Below, piece after piece: positions 43,270 to 58,042 of a DNA stretch of 64,000 nt; within the stretch, counting starts at the first letter, position 1; each line of letters starts with the position of its first letter. The stretch lies in contig JBEKDF010000001.1 of NCBI GenBank assembly GCA_050014495.1, positions 96,001 through 160,000 on the forward strand. Direction: 5' to 3'. The position numbers were made by a program, and so were the translations under genes. The DNA comes from Candidatus Bathyarchaeia archaeon. GTDB lineage: Archaea > Thermoproteota > Bathyarchaeia > TCS64. Under the pieces are notes generated by a model. It was given only the letters and a program-made list of their open reading frames with translations. It was not told the DNA's origin and ran no database searches.

Positions 43270-43426
43270 TTGTTTTCTTCGATCACATCTAGTTTGAGTT
43301 CTCGTCTCTCCCTCTCATAAGGGGGAGAACAATAACATTTCAGATATGTATTAGAAAGGTTCGACTCAGTGTTCGGTTCTTTCGTAGTGATATGTTTTTT
43401 AGGTTTGGAGTATGGGTTGTTGTTGG

Positions 43427-43536
43427 GCGGGGGTACCCGAGACTGGCCAAAGGGGCGGGACTTAAGATCAGGCAGTCTCTGGTGAGAGATCCCGTAGCTC
43501 AGGCTTTCGTGGGTTCAAGTCCCACCCCCCGCACCA
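43427..43536 (+). tRNA. tRNA-Leu(TAA) with 22-nt intron at 37/38 (43467-43488)
   Basis: GCGGGGG/CCCCCGC acceptor, CGGGA-CTTAAG|A-TCCCG, long variable arm, CCA; intron forms a BHB (CTTA/TGAG helix, two 3-nt bulges). Confidence 0.93.
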
Positions 43537-43588
43537 ACCTTCGAAACCCTCAAACTAAACTTGATTTGCAAGTAGTTGGTTACAGAAT

Positions 43589-44317
43589 TTATATATCAAT
43601 TGTTAAATCAGGTGGAACACCAAAAACCTCATCCAACATCATCTTAAAATATGCTTTCGATTTTATATCCAAAAGGAATAGTTTTTTACTATATGCTTTG
43701 TCAGTGAATTCTTTTTCACATATTTTCTTATGAGATCCTTCTATGTCGTTAAAATCATATCCAAGATAATGGATTAAATATTTGTCTCGACTAGTTGAAT
43801 ATCTTATAGCCTTAATTGATTCATATTGCTGTTCTCTAAATTGTAGAACAGGATACAAGTCCATAATAAAAGGTATCATTTGATCATAAGCTGATTTTAT
43901 ATAATCATAATCGTTAGGATTTATCTGACGATATTTCGAATAAATATTGCCTAGTTTCTCCATCATGCGCTCTGACTTTAAATTATATTTATCTACATAT
44001 TCCTCCTCATATTTATTAATAATTAGATTTCTTCTTAAAGCTGAGTTTATGAATGACGAAGGACCTAATCTAATAATTCTATTATTACCAAATTTTCTAG
44101 CAACGTTAGCCTTTTCAACCTTGCTCCGGGCCTCATCATTATAGGGAACACCTGCAAGATTGAACGCCTCTTTTTGACTTCCAAACAATTCATAAAATAC
44201 CCTGGGATTTACTTTACATTTTAATTGAATTTCCTTCATGCTCGGAGTTTTCCCAAACTCACCATAATAATTTTTAATAAACTGAATTATTTTTTTCCTT
44301 TCCTCATCAGCACTCAT
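43589..44317 (-). CDS. AT-rich ORFan with N-terminal HTH resembling the homing-endonuclease-associated repeat
   Basis: GKTPS..EI.......FYELFGS..EAF..AGV; markedly AT-rich; immediately downstream of tRNA-Leu. Confidence 0.55.
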   Translation of the reverse strand: MSADEERKKIIQFIKNYYGEFGKTPSMKEIQLKCKVNPRVFYELFGSQKEAFNLAGVPYNDEARSKVEKANVARKFGNNRIIRLGPSSFINSALRRNLIINKYEEEYVDKYNLKSERMMEKLGNIYSKYRQINPNDYDYIKSAYDQMIPFIMDLYPVLQFREQQYESIKAIRYSTSRDKYLIHYLGYDFNDIEGSHKKICEKEFTDKAYSKKLFLLDIKSKAYFKMMLDEVFGVPPDLTIDI

Positions 44318-44361
44318 GCTCAGTCAAACAGACATCAGTTACTGGCCTCGATTAATCTTTC

Positions 44362-44439
44362 CATTTCCAGCCATTTCTGGAGAAAGTGAGGTCATTTCAC
44401 CTTCATTCCAACCTCATTTACACCCATTTCACCCATTTC
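44362..44439. repeat. Seven CATTTC-like hexamers at ~10-11 bp phasing
   Basis: Copies start at 44362, 44372, 44393, 44404 (CATTCC), 44415 (CATTTA), 44425, 44434. Confidence 0.6.
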
Positions 44440-44563
44440 GGATATCTACAAGGCATGATATACTAAGATTATTGAAGTTTATTTGTGAGGGTTGTCTTAG
44501 AAGAGCAGAAGCTTGGCATATTCACTGCATAGTTTTTTGGGTGCAGAGTCATTATCCGCTGTA

Positions 44564-46999: not shown

Positions 47000-48976
47000 A
47001 TGGACCTTATTCTTCTTTCACTGTCTGTCGGCGCCATCGCGATGGCGTTCGTCGCGTACCTCTCATGGTCCATAATTCGTGAGCCCGCGGGTACACCTGA
47101 GATGATGAGGATTGCTGCTTCGATAGAGGATGGCGCTAAAGTCTACCTTCGCAGGCAGAACACAACGATCGCCGCCGTAACGGCGCTTGTCACCATCCCA
47201 ATAGCGCTCTACTACCATGACCTCAGGGTCATTGGAGCCTTCGTTGCTGGGTCCGCCCTCAGCCTCCTCAGCGCCTACATAGGAATGATGGTAGCCGTAA
47301 AAGCAAACGTGCGGACGACGAACGCGGCGAAAACGTCAACGGCGAAGAGCTTCCTCATTGCCTTCAGGGGCGGTGGAGTAATGGGCCTCCTAGTCACAGG
47401 CCTCAGCCTCATCGGGGTCAGCATCCTCCTCATGATATTCAAGGACCCAAACCTAATAGTCACCTACGGCTTCGGCTCCAGCCTCACCGCCCTCTTCGCC
47501 CAATTAGGTGGCGGCATCTTCACGAAAGCGGCCGACATAGGTGCTGACCTCGTCGGAAAGGTGGAGCACAGGATACCTGAGGACGACCCACGCAACCCCG
47601 CAGTGATCGCTGATCAGGTGGGCGACAACGTAGGTGACTGTGCGGGTAGGGGGAGCGACCTCTTCCAGACTCTGAGCGATGACTACATAACGGCGATGCT
47701 CCTCGCTTCCATCGTCCTGGGCTTCACAGGCATGAATGGCCTTGTATACCCCCTGATGTTGGGGGCAACTGGAATAATCGCAACGATAGTCGGGATCTTT
47801 CTCACGCGCCAATGGAGGGGTATCAGACCCATCAGCGCATTCAACGTCGGTCTCATTTCCTCCGCAGTTATTTGCATAATAGGCGCTTATTTTGCCACGA
47901 TAAGTCTCTTGGGGGACATCAGAATATTCTACGCCGTTGTCGGAGGCCTCCTGGCAAGCCTAGCGACAGGGCTCGTTGTCCAGTACTATATCGGAATTAA
48001 TAGCGGTCCAATCAAAAAGGTGGCGGCCTCATGCGAATACGGCTCCGCTATAAACATAATCACGGGTCTAGGCTACGCTCTCCAAAGCCCCTTCGTACCC
48101 TTCATTTGCGTCGTCGCCGTTATTTACTTCGCCTTTAGTATTACGGGCTCCATCTTCGGCGTCGTTGGCGTCAACCTCGGCACCGACCTCGCGATAGGGA
48201 TCATCATGTCAAGCGACACATTCGGCCCAATCAGCGACAACGCGCAGGGCATAGCAGAAATGTCTGGTATGGTCGAGAACGCCGACTCTTTAGTCGAACT
48301 AGACTCCATGGGGAACACTACGAAGGCCTTCACAAAGGCCTTTGCAACCCTTAGTGGCACGGTCTCGACAGTCGTCATCTTCGCAACTTACAGTAACTTG
48401 GCGGGGCTCACGAACGCTACAATTGGCCTACTCAGCCCAGTCTTCATAGTAGGCCTTCTCCTCGGTGGCGTCGTCCCATTCCTCTTCTCCTCCCTAATCA
48501 TAGGTGCCACCGCTGAGTCAGCCTATAAGATGGTCGAGGAGGTACGCAGACAGTTCAATGAGAGACCGGGGATATTGGAGGAGAAGGAGCTACCCGACTA
48601 CAAGAGGTGCGTCGATATAGCAACGCGGGATGCTCTTCTTAAGATGATTGCGCCCGGGCTACTCGCAGTGCTTGCCCCAATAGCTGTGGGCCTCATTCTC
48701 GGGAAATATGCTCTCGCGGCGATGCTCCTCGGTAGCCTTGTCACTTCAGCACTACTCAGCCCAACTTTTACATTCGGAGGAGGCATCTGGGACAACGCGA
48801 AGAAGCGCATTGAGAGGGATTTCTGGATGAAAGGGACCCCCGTACACGCTGCGGCTGTCACAGGTGACACAGTCGGTGACCCACTAAAAGATGTGGCAGG
48901 GCCTAGTCTCAACATCTACATGAAGCTGACGAATATGACGGCGCTACTCTTGGTGCCGCTCTTGTTGCTACTTTAG
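47000..48976 (+). CDS. hppA: Membrane-integral pyrophosphatase, K+-independent signature
   Basis: GGIFTKAADIGADLVGKVE, EDDPRN, GPISDNA.G, GNTTKA, DTVGDPLKD; start at ATG 47000. Confidence 0.93.
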   Translation: MDLILLSLSVGAIAMAFVAYLSWSIIREPAGTPEMMRIAASIEDGAKVYLRRQNTTIAAVTALVTIPIALYYHDLRVIGAFVAGSALSLLSAYIGMMVAVKANVRTTNAAKTSTAKSFLIAFRGGGVMGLLVTGLSLIGVSILLMIFKDPNLIVTYGFGSSLTALFAQLGGGIFTKAADIGADLVGKVEHRIPEDDPRNPAVIADQVGDNVGDCAGRGSDLFQTLSDDYITAMLLASIVLGFTGMNGLVYPLMLGATGIIATIVGIFLTRQWRGIRPISAFNVGLISSAVICIIGAYFATISLLGDIRIFYAVVGGLLASLATGLVVQYYIGINSGPIKKVAASCEYGSAINIITGLGYALQSPFVPFICVVAVIYFAFSITGSIFGVVGVNLGTDLAIGIIMSSDTFGPISDNAQGIAEMSGMVENADSLVELDSMGNTTKAFTKAFATLSGTVSTVVIFATYSNLAGLTNATIGLLSPVFIVGLLLGGVVPFLFSSLIIGATAESAYKMVEEVRRQFNERPGILEEKELPDYKRCVDIATRDALLKMIAPGLLAVLAPIAVGLILGKYALAAMLLGSLVTSALLSPTFTFGGGIWDNAKKRIERDFWMKGTPVHAAAVTGDTVGDPLKDVAGPSLNIYMKLTNMTALLLVPLLLLL

Positions 48977-49969
48977 GCCACGGAAATGCTCCCACCCGCC
49001 CTTACCGATGGACTTCTCGACTCCATCCTCGACGTAGATAATCCTCTTCTCATTGGTCACAACACCGAGCTCGAGGAGGTCCACGCCTTGAGAGCGCAGA
49101 GCCTTCTTAGCCTCGTTAACCATTTCAGGCTTGACTGTGAAGATAAGCTCATACTCCTCCCCACCGTATAGGGCAAGGTCTGCTCTGTCGAGCTCATAAA
49201 GCTCCGCGAACTCCTCAGCATCTCTCGTGAGAGGGAGGTTAGTGAGCCTAAAGCCATTACCACTGCTCTTCTGGAGGTCGTGGAGGCTAACAGCGAGGCC
49301 ATCACTTGAATCCATACTGCTTGTGGCAGTGCCCGAGGCGGCGAGGGCTATCCCCGCAGCGACCCTAGCACGAGGCATGTAGACCGACTCCACGAGCCTG
49401 ATGCGTAGTCCCTCGGGGGCCTCCATATCTTCGAGGAGTATCTTAAAAGCAGCGGTAGTGCTGCCAAAGCCACCCGTAGTAGCAAGCACATCGCCCGGCT
49501 TTGAGGTGCTCCTCAATATGAGACGTTTCTCCTCGGCGAGTCCGTAGGCCATTCCGGAGATTATGATGTCGCACGCTTCGTTGGTGTCGCCGCCCACCAT
49601 ATAGCCACCGTACTCTCGGGCGCCCGCTTCGAAGCCCCTGGCGATGTCCTCCACCCAGTCGACCGGCGTCGTGCTGGGCGCGCCGAGGGCGGCGAGGAAT
49701 ATGAGTGGCTGCACGCCCTTCGAGCCGAGGTCGCTGAAGTTCATTACAACTGCCTTGCGCCCCGCCTGGAAAGGTGTCATTCCTCGGGGTATGTCGGTCT
49801 TCCAGACGAGCATATCTGTTTTCAATATCACAGCGCGCCCGTCACCGAGGCTTATGGCGTTGACATCGTCCCAATTCGGCACGGGCATTCCCGGCATGAG
49901 AGTCAGGTGCCTCATTATGCGGTTGATTAGTTCCCGCTCTCCGATCTCTGCTATGGTGGGCAAGGGCAT
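48968..49969 (-). CDS. thiL: Thiamine-monophosphate kinase
   Basis: GERELI, DD, TD, N.SDL...G, GGDT, D.SDGL, GGEEYEL.FT. Confidence 0.92.
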   Translation of the reverse strand: MPLPTIAEIGERELINRIMRHLTLMPGMPVPNWDDVNAISLGDGRAVILKTDMLVWKTDIPRGMTPFQAGRKAVVMNFSDLGSKGVQPLIFLAALGAPSTTPVDWVEDIARGFEAGAREYGGYMVGGDTNEACDIIISGMAYGLAEEKRLILRSTSKPGDVLATTGGFGSTTAAFKILLEDMEAPEGLRIRLVESVYMPRARVAAGIALAASGTATSSMDSSDGLAVSLHDLQKSSGNGFRLTNLPLTRDAEEFAELYELDRADLALYGGEEYELIFTVKPEMVNEAKKALRSQGVDLLELGVVTNEKRIIYVEDGVEKSIGKGGWEHFRGLK

Positions 49970-50009: not shown

Positions 50010-50028
50010 TTAATAAACGTCTTATACA
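50010..50028 (+). repeat. 19-bp direct repeat, left copy (putative attL)
   Basis: TTAATAAACGTCTTATACA, identical to 56831-56849. Confidence 0.85.
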
Positions 50029-50048
50029 TAATTTGAATGGTTTAAAAA

Positions 50049-50300
50049 TTATACTTCAGGCTTCTTTTCGGGTTCTTTTTTAGGTTCTTCAACCGTTTTC
50101 TTTCGAGATTTGGTGCGTGATTTGATTGCACTAACTGTAGCGTTGTCTGCTCCAGTAATTTCTGATATCTCTTTGGGCTTCAAACCAACTTCTGAAAGTA
50201 TTTCTATTTTTTGAGTTAGAGTTTTATCAGCTAGAATAGTTGCAGCATTAATCTTAATCAAGATGTCGATTTTTTCAATTAAAACGTCTATTTTTTCCAT
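50049..50300 (-). CDS. Small HTH protein
   Basis: QKIEILSEVGLKPKEISEITG....TVS HTH-like; last gene of a three-gene unit. Confidence 0.6.
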   Translation of the reverse strand: MEKIDVLIEKIDILIKINAATILADKTLTQKIEILSEVGLKPKEISEITGADNATVSAIKSRTKSRKKTVEEPKKEPEKKPEV

Positions 50301-50316
50301 TAGTGGGGTTTCGCCT

Positions 50317-50784
50317 CTATTTATGTTCAGCTTCTTTGGGCGCTCCAGATGCTTCAACTAGAGGTGTTGAGGGTGGAGTTACCTGTCCGGTAGTACTCTT
50401 TTTTGGTTTTTTAGGTTCCTTTGCATATTCGATTTTTCGCAGGTTCTTGTAGAATTTTCCTTTTGGTTTCTCAATTTCATAAATTATACCAATATCAGCC
50501 CAATTTGACGTAACTCTTGAAAATTGTCCTTGGTCGATTTTGCATTCACTTGCAATTGTCGATTGAGTGTGGTTTCCATCACATAGGTTGTAAGCCTTAA
50601 CGTAGCTATCTGGTTCCGGCTTATGATCTGTGATTATTTTACCAAGAGGTTCGTCTGTTGGGAATGCTATACGTCCAAGAAGCGTGTTTGTTGCTTCAAC
50701 ATAATTTTGATAATATTCGACGGCTGATTTTAATTCGTCTATTTTAGCTATAAGTTTGGCATTAGGATCTTTTGCAGGACTCAA
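50317..50784 (-). CDS. Winged-HTH-like protein
   Basis: AYNLCDG..TQ..IA......Q..SR....W...GII; start overlaps the upstream stop. Confidence 0.6.
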   Translation of the reverse strand: MSPAKDPNAKLIAKIDELKSAVEYYQNYVEATNTLLGRIAFPTDEPLGKIITDHKPEPDSYVKAYNLCDGNHTQSTIASECKIDQGQFSRVTSNWADIGIIYEIEKPKGKFYKNLRKIEYAKEPKKPKKSTTGQVTPPSTPLVEASGAPKEAEHK

Positions 50785-51614
50785 TTTAATGGCTCACCAT
50801 CCCATATCATACATTTAGCCTCATCTTTACTTATTTCGCCACTTAACACAGATTTAACTGTTTCAAAAAGAAACTTTGTTGTCACTAATCTTGAATTATC
50901 CAGTTGCAAGAATTTTCGTGCATGATCTGTAATTGGTTTATCTCTAGTTATAGGGTCTTTTTCCCTAAAATGATTTACAAAAAAGAATCCTTGTAACTTA
51001 TCTGGCTCTCGTTCATCTTTTGCTACTTCTGCTTTCATCCATCCATCTAATTGAAGTGCTTTAACCTTGTCTCCTTGTTTTGTCGTACCTTCGACCTCGA
51101 CTAGAGCTTTCACTCCATTATACTCAAAAGTAACGTCAGCGTAATCTCTATTTTTAATGTGATGTTCAACGTTTTCAAACTCTAACCAAACTAGTGTAAA
51201 TGCAATTGCAGCTTCTAATGGAATATCAGCAAGGTATAACAAACGTTCAAACATATCATATTGTAATACTTTTTCTTGTAGAGTTTTAATCTCGGTATCA
51301 ACTGCTGTTCTTTCAGCGAATGAATAACTACTGATCCAATCTGGCTTAGGTTGAGTCATGATAATTGACTGTAACATTAATTTTGGCAAGTAGATTTCAG
51401 GAACACCGGTCTTTCCTTCGCCACCAAACACAATGTTAAGCTCTTTTGTATCAACAAGACGAGTGAGTGCCTCATTTAACTTAGGAGTTGTAATTCCAGT
51501 TTCTTCGACAAGAACTGTCTTAGAGGGAAGTTTGTGTTTTTGAAAAATATAGTCACTAATGAAATCAAGTATTATTTGAGAATTTTCAGCAATTTCTCTC
51601 TCAGACTCGGACAA
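50781..51614 (-). CDS. wHTH plus PD-(D/E)xK-like restriction-endonuclease-fold protein
   Basis: N-terminal LPSK..L...TGI....L..AL..L; C-terminal LE.AI...L, ADV, VEVEGTTK, QL..W, NHFR..P..R. Confidence 0.6.
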   Translation of the reverse strand: MSESEREIAENSQIILDFISDYIFQKHKLPSKTVLVEETGITTPKLNEALTRLVDTKELNIVFGGEGKTGVPEIYLPKLMLQSIIMTQPKPDWISSYSFAERTAVDTEIKTLQEKVLQYDMFERLLYLADIPLEAAIAFTLVWLEFENVEHHIKNRDYADVTFEYNGVKALVEVEGTTKQGDKVKALQLDGWMKAEVAKDEREPDKLQGFFFVNHFREKDPITRDKPITDHARKFLQLDNSRLVTTKFLFETVKSVLSGEISKDEAKCMIWDGEPLN

Positions 51615-51725
51615 TTAATTCTAGCAAAACTGTAACCTGTTCAATTAAATAAAATGCTCGTTTGCGCAAGTACAAGTCAAAGAAAACATAAGTTTTCTAG
51701 AAACCTAGAAAACAAATACTAACAT

Positions 51726-52316
51726 ATGATTGATCAAACAAAATTCGAATTCATAAAAAAGAAGTATGGGCATCATGCAAGTTGGGCAATTTGGGCTGAT
51801 GTGGGAGAAAAACCAAAAGATAATGTTGGCGATCTAAGCGTTTTTGACATAAAATACAATCCAGGACTTTTACAGCAATTGAATCCCGATATAATTCTTG
51901 TTGGGCTAAATGTATCGCGTGGAATGATGGAAGTTCCACTAGCAAATTTTCACGATGCAAGATCTGTATCACAGGATTTCAAGATAAGATACGCATTGAG
52001 CGGTTCGCCCTTGTGGGGAGCATATATAACAGACATCATCAAGGATTTTGATCAAAAAGCATCTGGAAAAGTGATGAGTTATTTAAGAATGAATAAAACG
52101 TTTGAAAAAGAGAATGTAAGATTGTTTCGTGAGGAAATAAATGATTTAGGAAGTCATAATCCTATTATTATCGCTTTTGGAAAAGATGTTCACACGATTC
52201 TGACCAGAAACTTCACGAATGAATATAAGATTTTCAAAATACCTCATTACAGCAATTTCTGCAGCAAGGAAAAATATAGAGAAGAGGTGAGTTGCATTTT
52301 GCAGTATGGAAAATAA
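51726..52316 (+). CDS. Uracil-DNA-glycosylase-like fold protein
   Basis: IILVGLN.S, NFH, YITDIIK, IIAFG, IPHYS mirror UDG-superfamily motif order. Confidence 0.5.
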   Translation: MIDQTKFEFIKKKYGHHASWAIWADVGEKPKDNVGDLSVFDIKYNPGLLQQLNPDIILVGLNVSRGMMEVPLANFHDARSVSQDFKIRYALSGSPLWGAYITDIIKDFDQKASGKVMSYLRMNKTFEKENVRLFREEINDLGSHNPIIIAFGKDVHTILTRNFTNEYKIFKIPHYSNFCSKEKYREEVSCILQYGK

Positions 52317-52442
52317 ATCGCGTGCTTACTCTTTTTTAAAAAGAATCTGTTTGGTTGAATGTTTAACAGACCACTAGAAAGCCCATTTTTTAAATTCAAA
52401 AATTTAAAACAAATAAGATGCCATTTCCCGTATATTAATCCT

Positions 52443-52475
52443 CCATAGTCTTATCCCCCAAACCCAAACCCAAAC
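52443..52475 (-). repeat. Island motif copy A (inverted) with CCCAAA tandem
   Basis: CCATAGTCTTATCCCCCAAACCCAAACCCAAAC; reverse complement contains TTTGGGGGATAAGACTATGG. Confidence 0.75.
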
Positions 52476-52630
52476 TAATATGATACTAGACAACATAAAA
52501 CACATACCATTATTTTCCGCACATATGGGAATATATAAGCGAATATGTCGACTTTATTACCCTAAAATACGGACATAATCTTATTAACTAGTTAACATAA
52601 TCAGAAAACGTGAGAAAGGGTTTGGGTGAA

Positions 52631-52777
52631 ATGGAGTCAGTTAACGTCGAATTAATTGAGACTAAACTAGTTGAGTTGGAAAATCAGGTTGAAGAACTTA
52701 GAAGAATTATTGTGTTATCAAGGCTGAAGTGTCTTTCACTAAAATCTGATAAAAAAGAATCATGCAAAGATAAGTGA
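52631..52777 (+). CDS. Putative 48-aa coiled-coil microprotein
   Basis: MESVNVELIETKLVELENQVEELRRIIVLSRLKCLSLKSDKKESCKDK, preceded by GGGTGA (Shine-Dalgarno-like). Confidence 0.45.
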   Translation: MESVNVELIETKLVELENQVEELRRIIVLSRLKCLSLKSDKKESCKDK

Positions 52778-52790
52778 TGAGAGATCTTAT

Positions 52791-52824
52791 TTTTGGGGAT
52801 AAGGCTATGGCTCCAAACCCAAAC
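52791..52824 (+). repeat. Island motif copy B
   Basis: TTTTGGGGATAAGGCTATGGCTCCAAACCCAAAC. Confidence 0.8.
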
Positions 52825-52930
52825 AGTTTTGACTGCAGCGCGAGCATAGGATTATCTTGGTATTTTCTCATTAAGCCTATGCGAGCTAAAATATAAGTTT
52901 CAATGCTTTACAAATGAGGGGGAAGCCGGA

Positions 52931-53344
52931 TTGAGCTTACCAGCGCTAAACGAATTCTATAGTAAGTTTAAGGACGATCCAGAGGCTGCCCAAAAGGAGG
53001 CTTTCAAGATAGGTGAAGCTATGGGTCGTGCGTTCATAAAGGAGCACAATATCAAAGGCGATGACATACAAACCATGGCAGAGGTCCTCAACGCTATCGG
53101 ACAGCAGACCTCGACCTCGGCAACGGTTCAAGGCAATAGGGCGATCGTCTCCAACAGGGGCTTCTGCCCCATAATGGCTTCCTCCATATCACTCAATTTA
53201 CCATGGAAATGGCTCTGCAATAATTTTGGTTGGCCATTAATACGAGGAGTGGCTCACGCGGTTAATCCCAAAGCCAAAGTTAACGTAGGTTCCTGGCGCG
53301 CTGACGGCGATCAACTCTGCGAGCACATTTACGAGATAGAGTAG
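52931..53344 (+). CDS. V4R/ATC-hydrolase-like ligand-binding protein
   Basis: G...G, FCPI, LC, A.NP, GD..CE...E pattern. Confidence 0.6.
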   Translation: MSLPALNEFYSKFKDDPEAAQKEAFKIGEAMGRAFIKEHNIKGDDIQTMAEVLNAIGQQTSTSATVQGNRAIVSNRGFCPIMASSISLNLPWKWLCNNFGWPLIRGVAHAVNPKAKVNVGSWRADGDQLCEHIYEIE

Positions 53345-53372
53345 ATCAATCACTTACAAGCGGGATGGCGAA

Positions 53373-54659
53373 ATGACCTCTACAGAGAGAAACTCCAATC
53401 GGGCTACAAGTCTAATAAACATCACAGCCTTCTATGTTGATGGAAAAAACGAGGATTCCTCCCAGTTAGGGCACAGAATCCTAGATTCAATGGCAAGTCG
53501 TTATGGCCTGAAGCCTCCACAGCAAGATGATTTCACTCTTACGTTTACCTTCGATGGTTTTCAGTATAATATAAAACTTATTAAAAGGGGGGCCTGCGAT
53601 GTCTTCCTAATAGATGTGAGCCACTCAACTAGAGAGCCATCAAGGAGATGGAATGAGGATATCTCAGCCTATCAAGATCGTATTCAACCCCTTTTGAAGT
53701 CGTTACCGGATAACCCAACCGCAGCCTTCTCCGTCTACTCGGTCTACACAGGCAGCCGAGATGAGGCGTTGACCACCTTCAACGAGTACTCAGCTAATCA
53801 AGCCCAGCTTCATACAGGTTTAGGGGTCATCCGAGGGTGCCTTCTAGCAATGTTTGGCGATAGCCAACAAGGGGAAGGAAATCAGGTCGTCGAACGTAAC
53901 CTTCTCCTCTCACCCTTTAATTCTGTAGATGCCGAGGCCGTTAGCTCAAGGCTATTAGAGGATATCAGCTCCCTCGCCTCCATAGAGGGAGAAATTAACA
54001 GGCTTTACCGGATGCGTCAGCCCTTCTTTAAATTGATTGGTTCAGTGGAGGAAGACACTCAAAAGGCGATCGATGAGATATTCGGCAACAGCCTACTTAA
54101 CCCGAATAAACTCGAAGATATGGAGGAGTCGTTGAAGGTAATAACAGGCAGATTTTCGACATTGTCTACGATGGCTGGAGCCGTGAGACGCGACAACATC
54201 TTAGTGGAATCTAAGCTAGACGAAGTTGAAGACCTCTTTCAGCGTTGGAACGAGTCCGAGGTAGAGGGGTATCCAACCATCTTCTCGATGGAGATGATAC
54301 ACTACAAGACTCTGAGCAAACCCTTCAAGGATTTTAAAGATAGAATTGAATCTTTGAAGGTGGAGTTGGGGACCGTCTTGGATACCGTTAGAACCCGCCT
54401 CAGCATGAATCAGCAAAAACTTGGCGTCGAGGAACAGAAATCCTCGAAGGATCTATTAACCAAATTGGTGAACCTCCAAGAGGCTCTAAACAAGCTTGAA
54501 ATCCTCATCGTGGCCTTCTACATAACGGAGATGGGAGGCCTGTTCTTCGAGGTGATCGCACACGATGTTGCGCCGCTTCTGACAGTAGCCTTCATACCCT
54601 TTGCTGCGCTAACATCCTTCGGTCTTATTCATTTAATGCACAAGCAAAGAAAAGAGTAG
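53373..54659 (+). CDS. Hypothetical protein with long helical region and two C-terminal TM segments
   Basis: Coiled region 200-370; LEILIVAFYI and LLTVAFIPFAAL hydrophobic segments. Confidence 0.65.
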   Translation: MTSTERNSNRATSLINITAFYVDGKNEDSSQLGHRILDSMASRYGLKPPQQDDFTLTFTFDGFQYNIKLIKRGACDVFLIDVSHSTREPSRRWNEDISAYQDRIQPLLKSLPDNPTAAFSVYSVYTGSRDEALTTFNEYSANQAQLHTGLGVIRGCLLAMFGDSQQGEGNQVVERNLLLSPFNSVDAEAVSSRLLEDISSLASIEGEINRLYRMRQPFFKLIGSVEEDTQKAIDEIFGNSLLNPNKLEDMEESLKVITGRFSTLSTMAGAVRRDNILVESKLDEVEDLFQRWNESEVEGYPTIFSMEMIHYKTLSKPFKDFKDRIESLKVELGTVLDTVRTRLSMNQQKLGVEEQKSSKDLLTKLVNLQEALNKLEILIVAFYITEMGGLFFEVIAHDVAPLLTVAFIPFAALTSFGLIHLMHKQRKE

Positions 54660-54691
54660 CGTGCATATGCGCGCGCAACAGGTGCAAGAAC

Positions 54692-55834
54692 CTAAGCAGG
54701 TGACGTGAAGACTGATTCGTAGTAGAAGCCAGTGTTCGTGGTCACTCTGATGACGTAAGAGGTACTGTGTGCCCAAGTGAAGCCTGTCGGAGCTATGGGG
54801 CCAATCGTCATGTGGGCTCCTGTACCGATCGCATTAGTGACTGTTAATACATAAGCCTGAGATCCAGATGAGTTTACCCTAATGGAGACCGATTCTAGGG
54901 TCGCGTCGACGCTTCCCGTATTCCTAACATCTACGCCTGTAAGTTGACTGAAAGTTGAACCCCAGGTGACTGAGTCGATCCTTACCTGGGTCTGCGCCTG
55001 TGCTGATTGATCATTGTTTGAGATATAGCATCTATTGATGACGATGTCCTGAATGGGCCAGTTATCGTATGGGATCGTCTGATTGTAGACTGGGAGGTAG
55101 ATGTTTCTCGTGCCAGTCTGCACCTTGCTGATCTGGTTTACCACATCCATGCCAGATATCACCTTCCCAAACACAGCGTACCCCGGGTTTGACGCAGAGT
55201 AGTCGAGGTTTTTGCTGTCGACTAAGTTGATGTAGAACTGACTCGTAGCGCTGTTAGAGTCACTGGATCGTGCCATCGCTATGGTTCCGGCGAGGTTACT
55301 AAGGCTGTTGTTTGACTCAAGTTTAATCGGAGCATTAGTAGCCTTCTCCGTTCCGTTCACTGAGAAACCTCCACCCTGGATTACGAAGCCCAGCATCACC
55401 CTGTGGAATACTGTGCCGTCGTAGAAGCCAGCTTTTACATAACTCAAGAAATTCGTTACCGTGATTGGTGCCTTATCGTCATAAAGTTGGATCACAATAT
55501 TGCCCATGCTAGTCTCTAGCGTCACTATGGTTCCATTTGTAACAGTATTCGTAGGTCCGATTTTATTATTTGAACTAAGTTCATTTTTGAGGGCAGCGTT
55601 TTCCTGAATTAAACTCTTTAACTGATTTTATGTGGCGTTGTTGGTATTTGTTAAAACCGTTATTCTGTTATCTAGATTCTTAATCTCAGCTGTGTAATTA
55701 TCCAAGGTACGTTGGTACTCTAATCGTGTCTGTAGCTGTGAGTAATTGAAACCTATAAACGAGCCAGCTCCAAGGGAAATAATAATCATTATTAATGAAG
55801 TCACTAGAGTTTTCCCTGATATGGTGAATGGCAT
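54692..55834 (-). pseudogene. Membrane-anchored cyclophilin PPIase with C-terminal pilin-like domain, interrupted by an in-frame TAA (55628-55630)
   Basis: TM plus coiled coil in frame with APIT..NF, FYDGT.FHRV..GFVIQGG, AMAR, SATSQFYIN, YAVFGKV. Confidence 0.75.
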
Positions 55835-56027
55835 GGAACTCTAACTCGTCTAACTGTTTATATAATATATAGTTTCTAAAAACAGTATTAAAGAATCTTC
55901 TGATTTTTTAAGTGTGCACTGCGAAACATATTGTAGATATGATATACATGATACGGTGATGAAGAGAGTATAAGAGAGTAGATAAGAGATGAGAAAAAGG
56001 AAAGTGAAAGTTAGTTCGTGAATAGAT

Positions 56028-56066
56028 GGGTTTTGGGGAATAAGGCTATGGCCCCAAACCCCAAAA
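56028..56066 (+). repeat. Island motif copy C
   Basis: GGGTTTTGGGGAATAAGGCTATGGCCCCAAACCCCAAAA, self-complementary arms. Confidence 0.8.
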
Positions 56067-56082
56067 TTATTGAGCTAAAAAT

Positions 56083-56622
56083 CTAAAATAAACTGAACTC
56101 GTTCTTCTTTTTTGTTATGCGTTTTTTCTTCTTAACTGTCTTAGCTTCCTTTTTCGCCAAAAGAGAGCTTATCTCCTTTTCAGTTATTTTTGAGCTTAAA
56201 GCATTCACATATTGCGATCTGGTTGGCGGGATAGTTTTACTAAAAAGCAAACCTTCCTCGGTCTTTCCTTTTAATGTGATATGCTTCTCCCTAGCTAATT
56301 TTTTCAACTGGGTTAATGTCAGATCCTTTAAGTTAGTTTTAACAGGATTAGATTCTTCAACTTTCCTTCCCTGCTTTTTTTGAAAGGTAGTCCACGAATC
56401 GGTTCCTTGTAATTTATTGCAAGCATAACAAAGAACTACGCTATTTTTCACACTTGTTGATCCGCCTTTTGACCAAGCGGTTTTATGCCCTATCTGCATT
56501 TCATGAAACTCTAATGATTTTCCACAGTTCTCACATTTTTTCTTAGCTCTTATCCAAAGAATTTGACGATCTCGAATACCAAGCGTTCTTTTTGTTGCTT
56601 TATCGTCTCCCCACAAAGACAT
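56083..56622 (-). CDS. HNH endonuclease (Zn-binding) with C-terminal helical HeH-like segment
   Basis: CENCG...GH..AWSKGG.T...N...LC..CN; L..LT..QLK.LA....I. Confidence 0.8.
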   Translation of the reverse strand: MSLWGDDKATKRTLGIRDRQILWIRAKKKCENCGKSLEFHEMQIGHKTAWSKGGSTSVKNSVVLCYACNKLQGTDSWTTFQKKQGRKVEESNPVKTNLKDLTLTQLKKLAREKHITLKGKTEEGLLFSKTIPPTRSQYVNALSSKITEKEISSLLAKKEAKTVKKKKRITKKKNEFSLF

Positions 56623-56640
56623 TTCAAAACCTTCTAAACT

Positions 56641-56769
56641 TTACCACTCAACCCTTGTTCTCCGCTTGGGTTTCCTTCGTGCATTGAAGCTGACAGTGCC
56701 TTCTTTAGTGTCAAAATTCACAGGTCGCTTGGTCTTGGTCTTTTTCTTCTGAGCTAAGAATGATGGCAT
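56641..56769 (-). CDS. Putative 42-aa highly basic microprotein (not in ORF track)
   Basis: MPSFLAQKKKTKTKRPVNFDTKEGTVSFNARRKPKRRTRVEW, 18 bp upstream of the HNH gene. Confidence 0.55.
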   Translation of the reverse strand: MPSFLAQKKKTKTKRPVNFDTKEGTVSFNARRKPKRRTRVEW

Positions 56770-56830
56770 AGGTTAAAATTTTCGTTAAACCTTAAATGGT
56801 TTTTGATATGCTCGCGCGCGCATTCGGATA

Positions 56831-56849
56831 TTAATAAACGTCTTATACA
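56831..56849 (+). repeat. 19-bp direct repeat, right copy (putative attR)
   Basis: TTAATAAACGTCTTATACA, identical to 50010-50028. Confidence 0.85.
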
Positions 56850-56890
56850 CCCATCTATGAACCTAATAGAATTGCTTGGTGAATGGCTTG

Positions 56891-58042
56891 ATGCGTAAAC
56901 CCCTCGAGGATGTAAGAGTCGTCGACATGACTCATGTCTGGTTCGGCCCCTGGTGCACCATGATGTTGGCTGATTTGGGAGCAGAGGTAATAAGAGTGGA
57001 GCCCCCTTGGGGGGCAATAGACAGGATAAGTGAAGGCATGCTCTATGGTGGGGCCCCCTACACGTTCCACCACCTTAACCAGAACAAAAAGGACCTAACT
57101 CTCAACCTGAAGAGCCCCGAGGGGATGCGTCTCATTAAAGAGCTCATAAAGAAGAGTGATGTAGTCGTCCAGAACATGAGCGTAGGCACCATGGAGAAGC
57201 TAGGCCTCGGCTACGAGGAGTTGAAGAAACTCAACCCCGGCATCATATACGCGGCCCTCAGCGGCTTCGGCCAGTACGGTCCCTACAAGAACAGGAATTG
57301 CTACGCCGTGTTCGCTGAGGCAATGAGTGGACACACCAGGATGACGGGGGACCTAGTCGACCCGCAAGGTCCGCCGCTCGAGATGGCGATGGCCCTTGGT
57401 GACATGTTGCCCGGTAGCCTCGCTGCAATGTCAATCCTGGCAGCTCTCCGCTACCGCGATAAGACCGGACTTGGCCAAATGATAGATGTAGCACAGCTCG
57501 ACTGCATGGTCGCTGTAAACCCGGGGATAACTGGCTACTTCTTTAGTGGCATGCCCATGTGGGAGTTAAGGAAGAAGTATCCCACTGGAGGCATCGGCGG
57601 TAAATTCAAGGCTATGGATGGTGGCTGGGTCCAAGTGGGAGCATTCAGCCCCTCCGCTCTGGAGAATCTGAAGAAGTTCCTTAACTTAGAGGACCCTACG
57701 AAGGAAGACTGTGAGAAGTATGTCGCTTCCAAAAACAGGGACGAGGCAGTGCAGGAGTTAGTTGACGCTGATCTCGCCGCTGCCCCTATCTACCAGCTCG
57801 ACGAGACAGCCAAGGATCCACAACTCGCTGCACGGGGTATGTTCATAGAACTCGATCACCCACTCGCGGGGAAGGTTAGGACTGCTAACAATCCGATAAA
57901 GTTTAGCCTCACCCCGGTGGAGAGGAAAACGGCAGCTCCCATTCTTGGCCAGCATAGCAAGGAGATCCTGAGTAAGATACTCGGTCTCAGCGACACTCAG
58001 ATCGAGGAACTCATCAATAATGGCGTCGTCGCCCCAAGTTAG
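56891..58042 (+). CDS. Family III CoA-transferase (CaiB/BaiF)
   Basis: PL..VRVVD.....GP.C...LADLGAEVIRVE, N.NKK, SGFGQ.GPY, AP.LGQH. Confidence 0.92.
   Translation: MRKPLEDVRVVDMTHVWFGPWCTMMLADLGAEVIRVEPPWGAIDRISEGMLYGGAPYTFHHLNQNKKDLTLNLKSPEGMRLIKELIKKSDVVVQNMSVGTMEKLGLGYEELKKLNPGIIYAALSGFGQYGPYKNRNCYAVFAEAMSGHTRMTGDLVDPQGPPLEMAMALGDMLPGSLAAMSILAALRYRDKTGLGQMIDVAQLDCMVAVNPGITGYFFSGMPMWELRKKYPTGGIGGKFKAMDGGWVQVGAFSPSALENLKKFLNLEDPTKEDCEKYVASKNRDEAVQELVDADLAAAPIYQLDETAKDPQLAARGMFIELDHPLAGKVRTANNPIKFSLTPVERKTAAPILGQHSKEILSKILGLSDTQIEELINNGVVAPS

What the first reader, a model, noticed from the sequence alone, without database searches (positions are those of the whole stretch)
50010..56849. 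Integrase-less 6.8-kb defence-like island bounded by an exact 19-bp direct repeat
Seen: TTAATAAACGTCTTATACA occurs at 50010-50028 and 56831-56849, exactly where AT-rich sequence begins and ends. No recombinase or transposase is inside, and the site is not a tRNA. The core has ATAA-ACGTC-TTAT dyad symmetry. Both the reconstructed empty site (GGG..TTAATAA/TTATACA-CCC) and the circle junction (CATTC.../...GAATG) show imperfect flanking symmetry. Inference: a non-autonomous element integrated by a trans-acting tyrosine recombinase, possibly host XerA. The 5-bp ATAA-TTAT spacing differs from the 6 bp of classical dif.
Basis: partly seen in the sequence, partly recalled or inferred. Interest (0 to 1): 0.75.

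Follow-up and report, generated by a model that had tools for sequence, protein, structure and literature searches.

The report
Stranded integrase island at archaeal promoter
A 6.8-kb block of extra genes in a peat archaeon lies between two copies of a short site that relatives carry once; it was likely inserted by a mobile element's own integrase, seen beside the same site in a relative and likely deleted here later, so it is a fairly ordinary stranded island, not a passenger of the host's chromosome-untangling enzyme.

Summary
The 19-bp repeat and the island are real. In 8 of 17 genus relatives thiL and the CoA-transferase gene are only 82-88 bp apart, 7 with one copy of the site; G011, G002, L065 and L068 carry other inserts there. 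In G002 a tyrosine integrase gene starts about 30 bp inside the same right-hand site. This genome's contig C55 holds the circle-type junction beside a 5' stump of that integrase. In 3 of 3 integrase-less right ends, likeness to the integrase-bearing end stops at a (CG)n tract. Best reading: a decayed integrative element whose own integrase was deleted. XerA is not supported (1 of 71 family genomes over the cut-off). No intact cognate integrase was found in this genome, and no empty or circular joint in 8 runs' contigs. The site is likely the CoA-transferase promoter; a related integrase sits at the rpl21e promoter position. Cargo is only partly defence-like. The scan noted (CG)n scars and a promoter-inserted element before, on other DNA.

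The parts
48968..49969 (-).
   Evidence: matches in 60 of 61 genomes at E<=0.001, some only paralogues
50010..50028 (+). attL core (19 bp). Host-type sequence on its left; its first 3 bases are element-type (TTA), not the CTG of relatives' empty sites
50029..50042 (+). Element-side arm (P'), TAATT(C/T)G..., shared with G011's insert and the C55 junction
50049..50357 (-). 102-aa ORF, weak match to a phage transcriptional repressor family (likely HTH)
   Evidence: phrog_6223, E 3e-4
50317..50784 (-). 155-aa ORF, no clear family
50781..51614 (-). 277-aa protein, predicted winged helix + PD-(D/E)xK-type nuclease fold
   Evidence: model pLDDT 86; best PDB matches FokI E 1e-5, EndoMS/NucS-type 6e-4; 19 homologues incl. 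itself
51726..52316 (+). 196-aa protein, predicted uracil-DNA-glycosylase-superfamily fold; 83-84% identical to proteins labelled Methanoregula, a sign of recent transfer
   Evidence: best E 6e-4, TM about 0.43
52443..52473 (-). Copy of a dispersed repeat (core CATAGYCTTATCC); further copies at 52790-52832 and 56031-56073
52931..54659 (+). Two-gene block (137 aa, 428 aa), GC 0.47; found as a block at 69% DNA identity at another locus in G016
54669..54676 (.). (CG)n tract between two cargo blocks
54692..55834 (-). Cyclophilin gene with an N-terminal hydrophobic anchor, interrupted by an in-frame TAA at 55628-55630 (likely pseudogene or two-part gene)
   Evidence: PF00160 E 2e-46
56083..56622 (-). 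179-aa HNH endonuclease
   Evidence: PF01844 E 2e-8
56646..56807 (.). Sequence upstream of the HNH gene, found at two other loci of G016 (86% over 160 bp, 93% over 60 bp); likeness ends at 56805-56807
56813..56821 (.). (CG)n tract at the join between cargo and the shortened element arm, where the integrase gene starts in G002
56822..56830 (+). Remaining 9 bp of the element-side arm (P)
56831..56849 (+). attR core (19 bp); likely also the BRE-TATA promoter of the CoA-transferase gene
   Evidence: promoter matrix score weak
56876..58042 (+). Right flank: family III CoA-transferase gene (likely start ATG 56891, after GGTGA at 56878)
   Evidence: PF02515 E 1e-93

Best explanation
The island is likely the remnant of an integrative element that was inserted by its own tyrosine integrase at a site that is likely the CoA-transferase promoter, and that likely lost the integrase afterwards by a deletion marked by a (CG)n tract, leaving both attachment sites and a patchwork of cargo. 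Shown: a single-copy empty site in relatives; four other inserts at the same site; the same right-hand site next to an integrase start in G002; a circle-type junction with an integrase stump on C55; the (CG)n tract at the break. Inferred: that this integrase did the recombination; that the crossover lies within positions 4-17 of the 19-mer (6- or 7-bp overlap); that the core is a promoter rebuilt at attR; the order 'insert, then delete'; and that the island is now immobile or nearly so.
For: Empty site: thiL-CoA gap 82-88 bp in 8 of 17 genus relatives, 7 with the core; 5 more hold one copy with a different GC-rich gene in the gap. Arms sort as site-specific recombination predicts: host-left + element-right in G011 and the window; element-left + host-right in the window, G002:C28, L065, L068; element + element on C55. 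G002:C28: integrase start about 30 bp inside attR, reading inward, catalytic R-K-H-R-H-Y pattern present in the alignment (motif recalled); uninterrupted orthologues P0002 (383 aa) and P0003 exist. C55: 246 bp at 84% identity to that integrase end, 63 codons at 71% to P0002. The element arm plus core matches exactly only in G000 and G002 among 401 genomes; four 3-mismatch hits are at the level of the reversed control. (CG)n tract within 12 bp of the break in 3 of 3 integrase-less right ends, against about 0.9% per junction from this genome's intergenic density. No empty or circular joint in contigs of 8 runs; single contigs run through each site in X1 and X3.
Against: Only one integrase-bearing copy of the site was found; it is frameshifted (2 of 3 neighbouring host genes on that contig are too) and its left end is off the contig, so no whole autonomous element was seen. 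The window's attL begins with element-type TTA where G009, G011, G012 and G013 have CTG; simple integration does not explain that unless this species' empty site differs, and no empty site of this species was found. L065 and L068 come from hosts 95.6% alike with equal-length joins, so 3 scars may be 2 events; (CG)n tracts cluster in accessory DNA, so 0.9% understates chance. The tRNA-trained promoter matrix scores the core only 3.7 in G009 and G012 (training median 11.2, minimum 2.9). Logan contigs drop rare variants, so 'no circle' is weak.
Confidence: 0.8

Rival explanations
1. The island is a live non-autonomous element: it would have lost the integrase before arrival and would still be excised and inserted in trans by a helper carrying the cognate integrase.
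For: Both cores are perfect; 9 bp of the left arm and about 14 bp of the right arm survive. Intact integrases of this type exist in other samples. This genome once carried one (C55 stump). The bin may miss mobile DNA (96% complete).
Against: No intact cognate integrase among 13 PF00589 hits and tblastn (best 31-35% identity). The 14-bp palindrome next to the arm in G002 is lost in the window. The four other inserts share no listed cargo with this one in the stretches held. No circle or empty joint in 8 runs.
Confidence: 0.1
2. Host XerA would integrate the element at a dif-like site.
For: Single copy per chromosome, non-tRNA, dyad ATAA/TTAT. By eye the element's right arm matches the right arm of the P. 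abyssi dif oligonucleotide at 8 of 11 positions, the left arm at 5 of 11.
Against: No XerA over the NCBIfam cut-off in this genome (best 160 of 220 bits, in a phage-like setting); 1 of 71 family genomes. Dif is 11-6-11 (PMC8371274, passage); this dyad has 5 or 7 bp. The G002 integrase piece scores 56.5 bits on that model. A dedicated integrase abuts the site in G002 and on C55. The core is absent from G007's short gap.
Confidence: 0.04
3. The repeat would be a target duplication from a transposon or a repair event that copied a promoter, with no integrase involved.
For: A perfect 19-bp repeat, including the three bases that differ from relatives' empty sites; (CG)n tracts and IS-like ends are common in this genome.
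Against: Element-specific arms conserved beyond the repeat in unrelated inserts (7 bp on the right in 3 loci, 9-15 bp on the left in 5 loci); a head-to-tail junction with a single core on C55; no terminal inverted repeats at the island's ends among the 25 longest pairs.
Confidence: 0.05

Closest known systems
CIME (cis-mobilizable element): decayed integrative element that lost integration and transfer genes but kept attL and attR (PMC5704250, passage read)
   Same: Both att sites kept, no integrase or transfer gene, site reused by other elements, tandem-type junction in the same genome.
   Different: Described there for bacteria and mostly at gene 3' ends; here archaeal, intergenic, and no conjugative parent is known. 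Cis-mobilisation was not tested.
Cryptic integrated elements of Thaumarchaeota (PMC6563490, passages read)
   Same: Size under 20 kb, short att (median 17 bp there), intergenic targets (15 of 68 there), mixed cargo with nucleases.
   Different: Those are defined by carrying an integrase; this one has lost it. The word 'promoter' does not occur in that paper's main text.
Archaeal Xer/dif system (PMC2958812 and PMC8371274, passages read)
   Same: Tyrosine-recombinase-type dyad with inner ATAA/TTAT; single chromosomal copy.
   Different: Spacing not 11-6-11; no conserved XerA in the family; an element-borne integrase lies next to the site.
Intergenic AT-rich att sites of lambda, PsiM100 (PMC8371274 section 19 read whole) and Yucahu-i of Atabeyarchaeia (PMC11529989, passages)
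   Same: AT-rich non-tRNA site; integrase gene next to the att; neighbouring genes left intact.
   Different: Those elements keep their integrase and excise; neither text, in what I read, ties the site to a core promoter.

Membership tests
CIME / decayed integrative element | attL and attR flanking the element, with a single-copy empty site in relatives | tested here: met
CIME / decayed integrative element | No integrase or transfer gene inside | tested here: met
CIME / decayed integrative element | Derived from an integrase-bearing parent using the same site | tested here: met
   G002:C28 and C55; the parent's left end was not seen
CIME / decayed integrative element | Parent was conjugative or mobilisable; remnant moves in cis with a helper | not testable with these tools
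   No whole parent element available; no joints in contigs
Thaumarchaeal-type cryptic integrated element | Encodes a tyrosine integrase | tested here: not met
   None inside 50010-56849
Thaumarchaeal-type cryptic integrated element | Short att repeat, no virus or conjugation signature genes | tested here: met
   no exact site match and no integrase relative in viral contigs
Xer-exploiting element at dif | Target is 11-6-11 dif | tested here: not met
   Best dyads have 5- or 7-bp centres; definition
Xer-exploiting element at dif | Host encodes a conserved XerA | tested here: not met
   0 of 11 matches over cut-off in G000; 1 of 71 family genomes; genomes are incomplete
Xer-exploiting element at dif | Site at the replication terminus | not tested
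   Genome is in 92 contigs
Defence island | Encodes a recognised anti-phage system | tested here: not met
   PADLOC: 10 proteins scanned, only HNH-domain-level or weak hits; no methyltransferase
Defence island | Enriched in DNA-attacking enzymes | tested here: inconclusive
   HNH, predicted PD-(D/E)xK nuclease, predicted UDG-fold protein; the other genes are not defence-like
Core promoter (BRE-TATA) as attB | TATA-like box at promoter distance, conserved, used for transcription | tested here: inconclusive
   Conserved across genus and much of the family at a fixed place before the gene; weak matrix score; no RNA data

The most novel reading that the evidence does not exclude
An uncharacterised clade of Bathyarchaeia tyrosine integrases targets the BRE-TATA cores of divergent housekeeping-gene promoters, using the TATA box as one binding arm and rebuilding the promoter on insertion; the elements are then pinned in place by deletions that leave (CG)n scars, turning promoters into cargo-collecting hotspots. 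Two sites have empty-site evidence here (CoA-transferase, rpl21e); 6 of 19 clade loci have a divergent gene starting about 90-160 bp from the integrase and none has a tRNA directly at its 5' end.
Probability: 0.35. Interest if true: 0.58.

Novelty: new member of a known kind. Interest (0 to 1): 0.33.

Why it matters
As an object it is a familiar decayed island. Its value is in what it hands over: a matched set of empty site, left, right and circle-type junctions and intact integrase orthologues for Bathyarchaeia, which makes a recombination assay straightforward; a possible promoter-targeting habit of this integrase clade; and a (CG)n junction where both parent sequences are known (HNH upstream block and att arm), useful for the open question of what writes these scars.

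Tried and rejected
XerA/dif: rejected. 'Common promoter motif': the 19-mer has only 3 copies within 3 mismatches genome-wide. Circle or empty-site joints: none in 8 of 24 listed runs laid; contigs only, X1 may be the source, 4-5 runs are shallow. X14 (a strain about 98% alike) covers the middle cargo and flanks but not 50170-51505 or 56182-56849; uncovered parts prove nothing. Viral contigs: no integrase relative, no exact site. Metagenome scan: 8 hits, of which 3 are this organism (L066, L071, L072), 2 new occupied sites (L065, L068), 3 unrelated (L067, L069, L070). GTDB scan with P0002: 1 locus, the G002 contig. Promoter targeting as a rule for all integrases here: not supported; the C15 integrase joins at the 3' end of the upstream gene, several others are at tRNAs, and of 19 clade loci several have a convergent neighbour or too little sequence. 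Sequence search of PDB with the 277-aa alignment: nothing significant. Protein atlas: not answered. Literature: searches listed no paper on promoter-targeting Bathyarchaeia integrases; the library lacks most subscription papers and no supplements were read (site tables of PMC6563490 could bear on promoter targeting).
Full report
Observation. The 19-mer is present exactly at 50010-50028 and 56831-56849, with no other match within 3 mismatches in the window and none in 100 shuffles. The island has GC 0.40 against 0.559 and 0.524 in the flanks; its middle block is 0.47-0.49. No integrase or transposase family was hit by its ORFs and there is no tRNA at the ends. The host is a Bathyarchaeia-type archaeon by the labels of its integrase relatives, and runs holding the stretch are mostly peat metagenomes.

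The empty site exists. Of 17 genus relatives, 8 have thiL and the CoA-transferase gene 82-88 bp apart, 7 of them with one copy of the core; G009, G012 and G013 share the window's left and right flanks almost base for base. Five have another gene in the gap and one copy; G011 has a different insert that starts at the same base as ours; G006's contig starts at the site; G001 and G010 gave no thiL orthologue.

The recombinase is element-borne. An exact copy of the 19-mer in G002:C28 lies before the CoA-transferase gene with a tyrosine integrase gene starting about 30 bp inside it and reading inward. That copy is frameshifted, as are 2 of 3 host genes checked on the contig; uninterrupted orthologues P0002 and P0003 carry the same N-terminus. 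A metagenome scan gave 8 hits: 3 from this organism, 3 unrelated, and 2 further right ends at the same gene, L065 and L068. The third copy in this genome, on C55, joins the element's left arm to the element's right arm, the form expected of a circle or tandem junction, and carries the first 63 or more codons of the same integrase before an IS-like end cuts it. In register, all seven occupied junctions share AACGTCT and their arms sort into host and element types. These data confine the crossover to positions 4-17. A 7-bp overlap would explain the odd '5-bp' dyad (lambda's overlap is 7 bp; PMC8371274 passage), but the sister integrase at rpl21e shows a 6-bp spacer by eye, so the length is open.

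XerA is not supported. No match reaches the NCBIfam XerA cut-off in this genome, the best lying among phage-like genes, and only 1 of 71 family genomes has one. A residual likeness to P. abyssi dif remains in the right arm (8 of 11, by eye).

How the integrase went. In the window, L065 and L068, likeness to G002's integrase-bearing end stops 9-15 bp outside the core, at a (CG)n tract. In the window the other side of the tract is a block found at two other loci of G016, whose likeness ends 5-7 bp before it. A run of 8 or more falls in a given 12-bp intergenic window about 0.9% of the time in this genome. Caveats: L065 and L068 may be one event (hosts 95.6% alike), and such runs cluster in accessory DNA. 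Earlier notes of this scan describe these tracts as repair or transposon scars (e1-8162686, e1-7056670, e1-8162707); I confirmed their excess, not their cause.

Is it mobile now? Likely not. None of 13 PF00589 hits is the cognate enzyme (best 31-35% identity), the arm is shortened, and contigs of 8 runs show no empty or circular joint. The bin is 96% complete and contigs hide rare forms, so this is soft.

The target. The core is the best-kept part of the gap across the genus and much of the family and lies 42 bp before the likely ATG, upstream of a GGTGA. That fits a BRE-TATA promoter (general archaeal knowledge), but a matrix trained on 41 tRNA upstream regions scores it weakly. Prompted by e1-3924472, I tested a second case: the related C56 integrase joins 70-80 bp before rpl21e, at a TATA-like box, where 7 of 17 relatives have an uninterrupted peptidase/rpl21e gap and G002 a small decayed insert. 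Of 19 clade loci, 6 have a divergent gene within about 90-160 bp and none a tRNA directly at the 5' end; others have convergent neighbours, and empty sites were not checked for them. The C15 integrase does not fit.

Cargo. A predicted winged-helix plus PD-(D/E)xK nuclease, a predicted UDG-fold protein with 83-84% identity to Methanoregula-labelled proteins, an HNH nuclease and a stop-interrupted cyclophilin, plus unknowns. Blocks occur separately elsewhere in relatives, so the island is a patchwork. PADLOC matches no system.

Unexplained. The window's attL starts with element-type TTA where four relatives have CTG. This species' empty site may simply differ, or an earlier round of recombination converted it.

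Comparison and verdict. It works like, and by the testable features is, a decayed integrative element of the CIME kind (PMC5704250, passage), close to thaumarchaeal cryptic elements (PMC6563490, passages) but without their defining integrase. Intergenic att sites are known in archaea (PMC8371274 section 19). Searches listed no paper on promoter-targeting integrases of this clade; supplements were not read. New member of a known kind; interest 0.33. The promoter-targeting clade reading has about 35% odds and would merit about 0.58.

Noticed in passing
window 52444-52456, 52797-52809 (variant at 56031-56073); 67 copies genome-wide: A 13-bp motif CATAGYCTTATCC occurs 67 times (about 0.4 expected), mostly on small AT-rich contigs. 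Likeness between copies stops sharply on one side, where short runs such as (GTTTGG)n or (GT)n often follow; on the other side many copies continue into a shared sequence at the end of a repeated small-membrane-protein gene family. Possibly the end of an undescribed mobile or cassette system.
   Followed up: partly
G000:C55:12067-12331 (L052, L072): Circle-type att junction with an integrase 5' stump, cut after about 70 codons by a repeated IS-like end finishing in a GC run, at a different chromosomal place from the window.
   Followed up: yes
G000:C56:7040-8475; L198:2850-4530: A related integrase (31-35% identity) starts 133 bp from rpl21e, reading away; 7 of 17 relatives have a peptidase-like gene there instead, and G002 has a 1.7-kb decayed insert bounded by a 10-bp repeat at that position.
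   Followed up: yes
genome-wide: Alternating CG runs are 5- to 18-fold above Markov expectation (367 CGCGCGCG against 21-75); 361 of 459 runs of 8 or more lie outside long ORFs.
   Followed up: partly
window about 43425-44500: A tRNA-Leu-like gene with an apparent insertion that ARAGORN did not list in the window, followed by a 1-kb AT-rich stretch (GC 0.32-0.35) with a 242-aa ORF; no flanking repeat found.
   Followed up: partly
L058, L059, L060, L061, L089: Five genus relatives have a different GC-rich gene (permease-like by recall, untested) between thiL and the CoA-transferase gene with only one copy of the site; in G008 it is broken at two GC runs.
   Followed up: partly
L058 and L057 (G002:C18 and C28): G002 holds two CoA-transferase loci 97.7% alike, one without and one with the integrase element; likely two strains in one bin.
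   Followed up: partly
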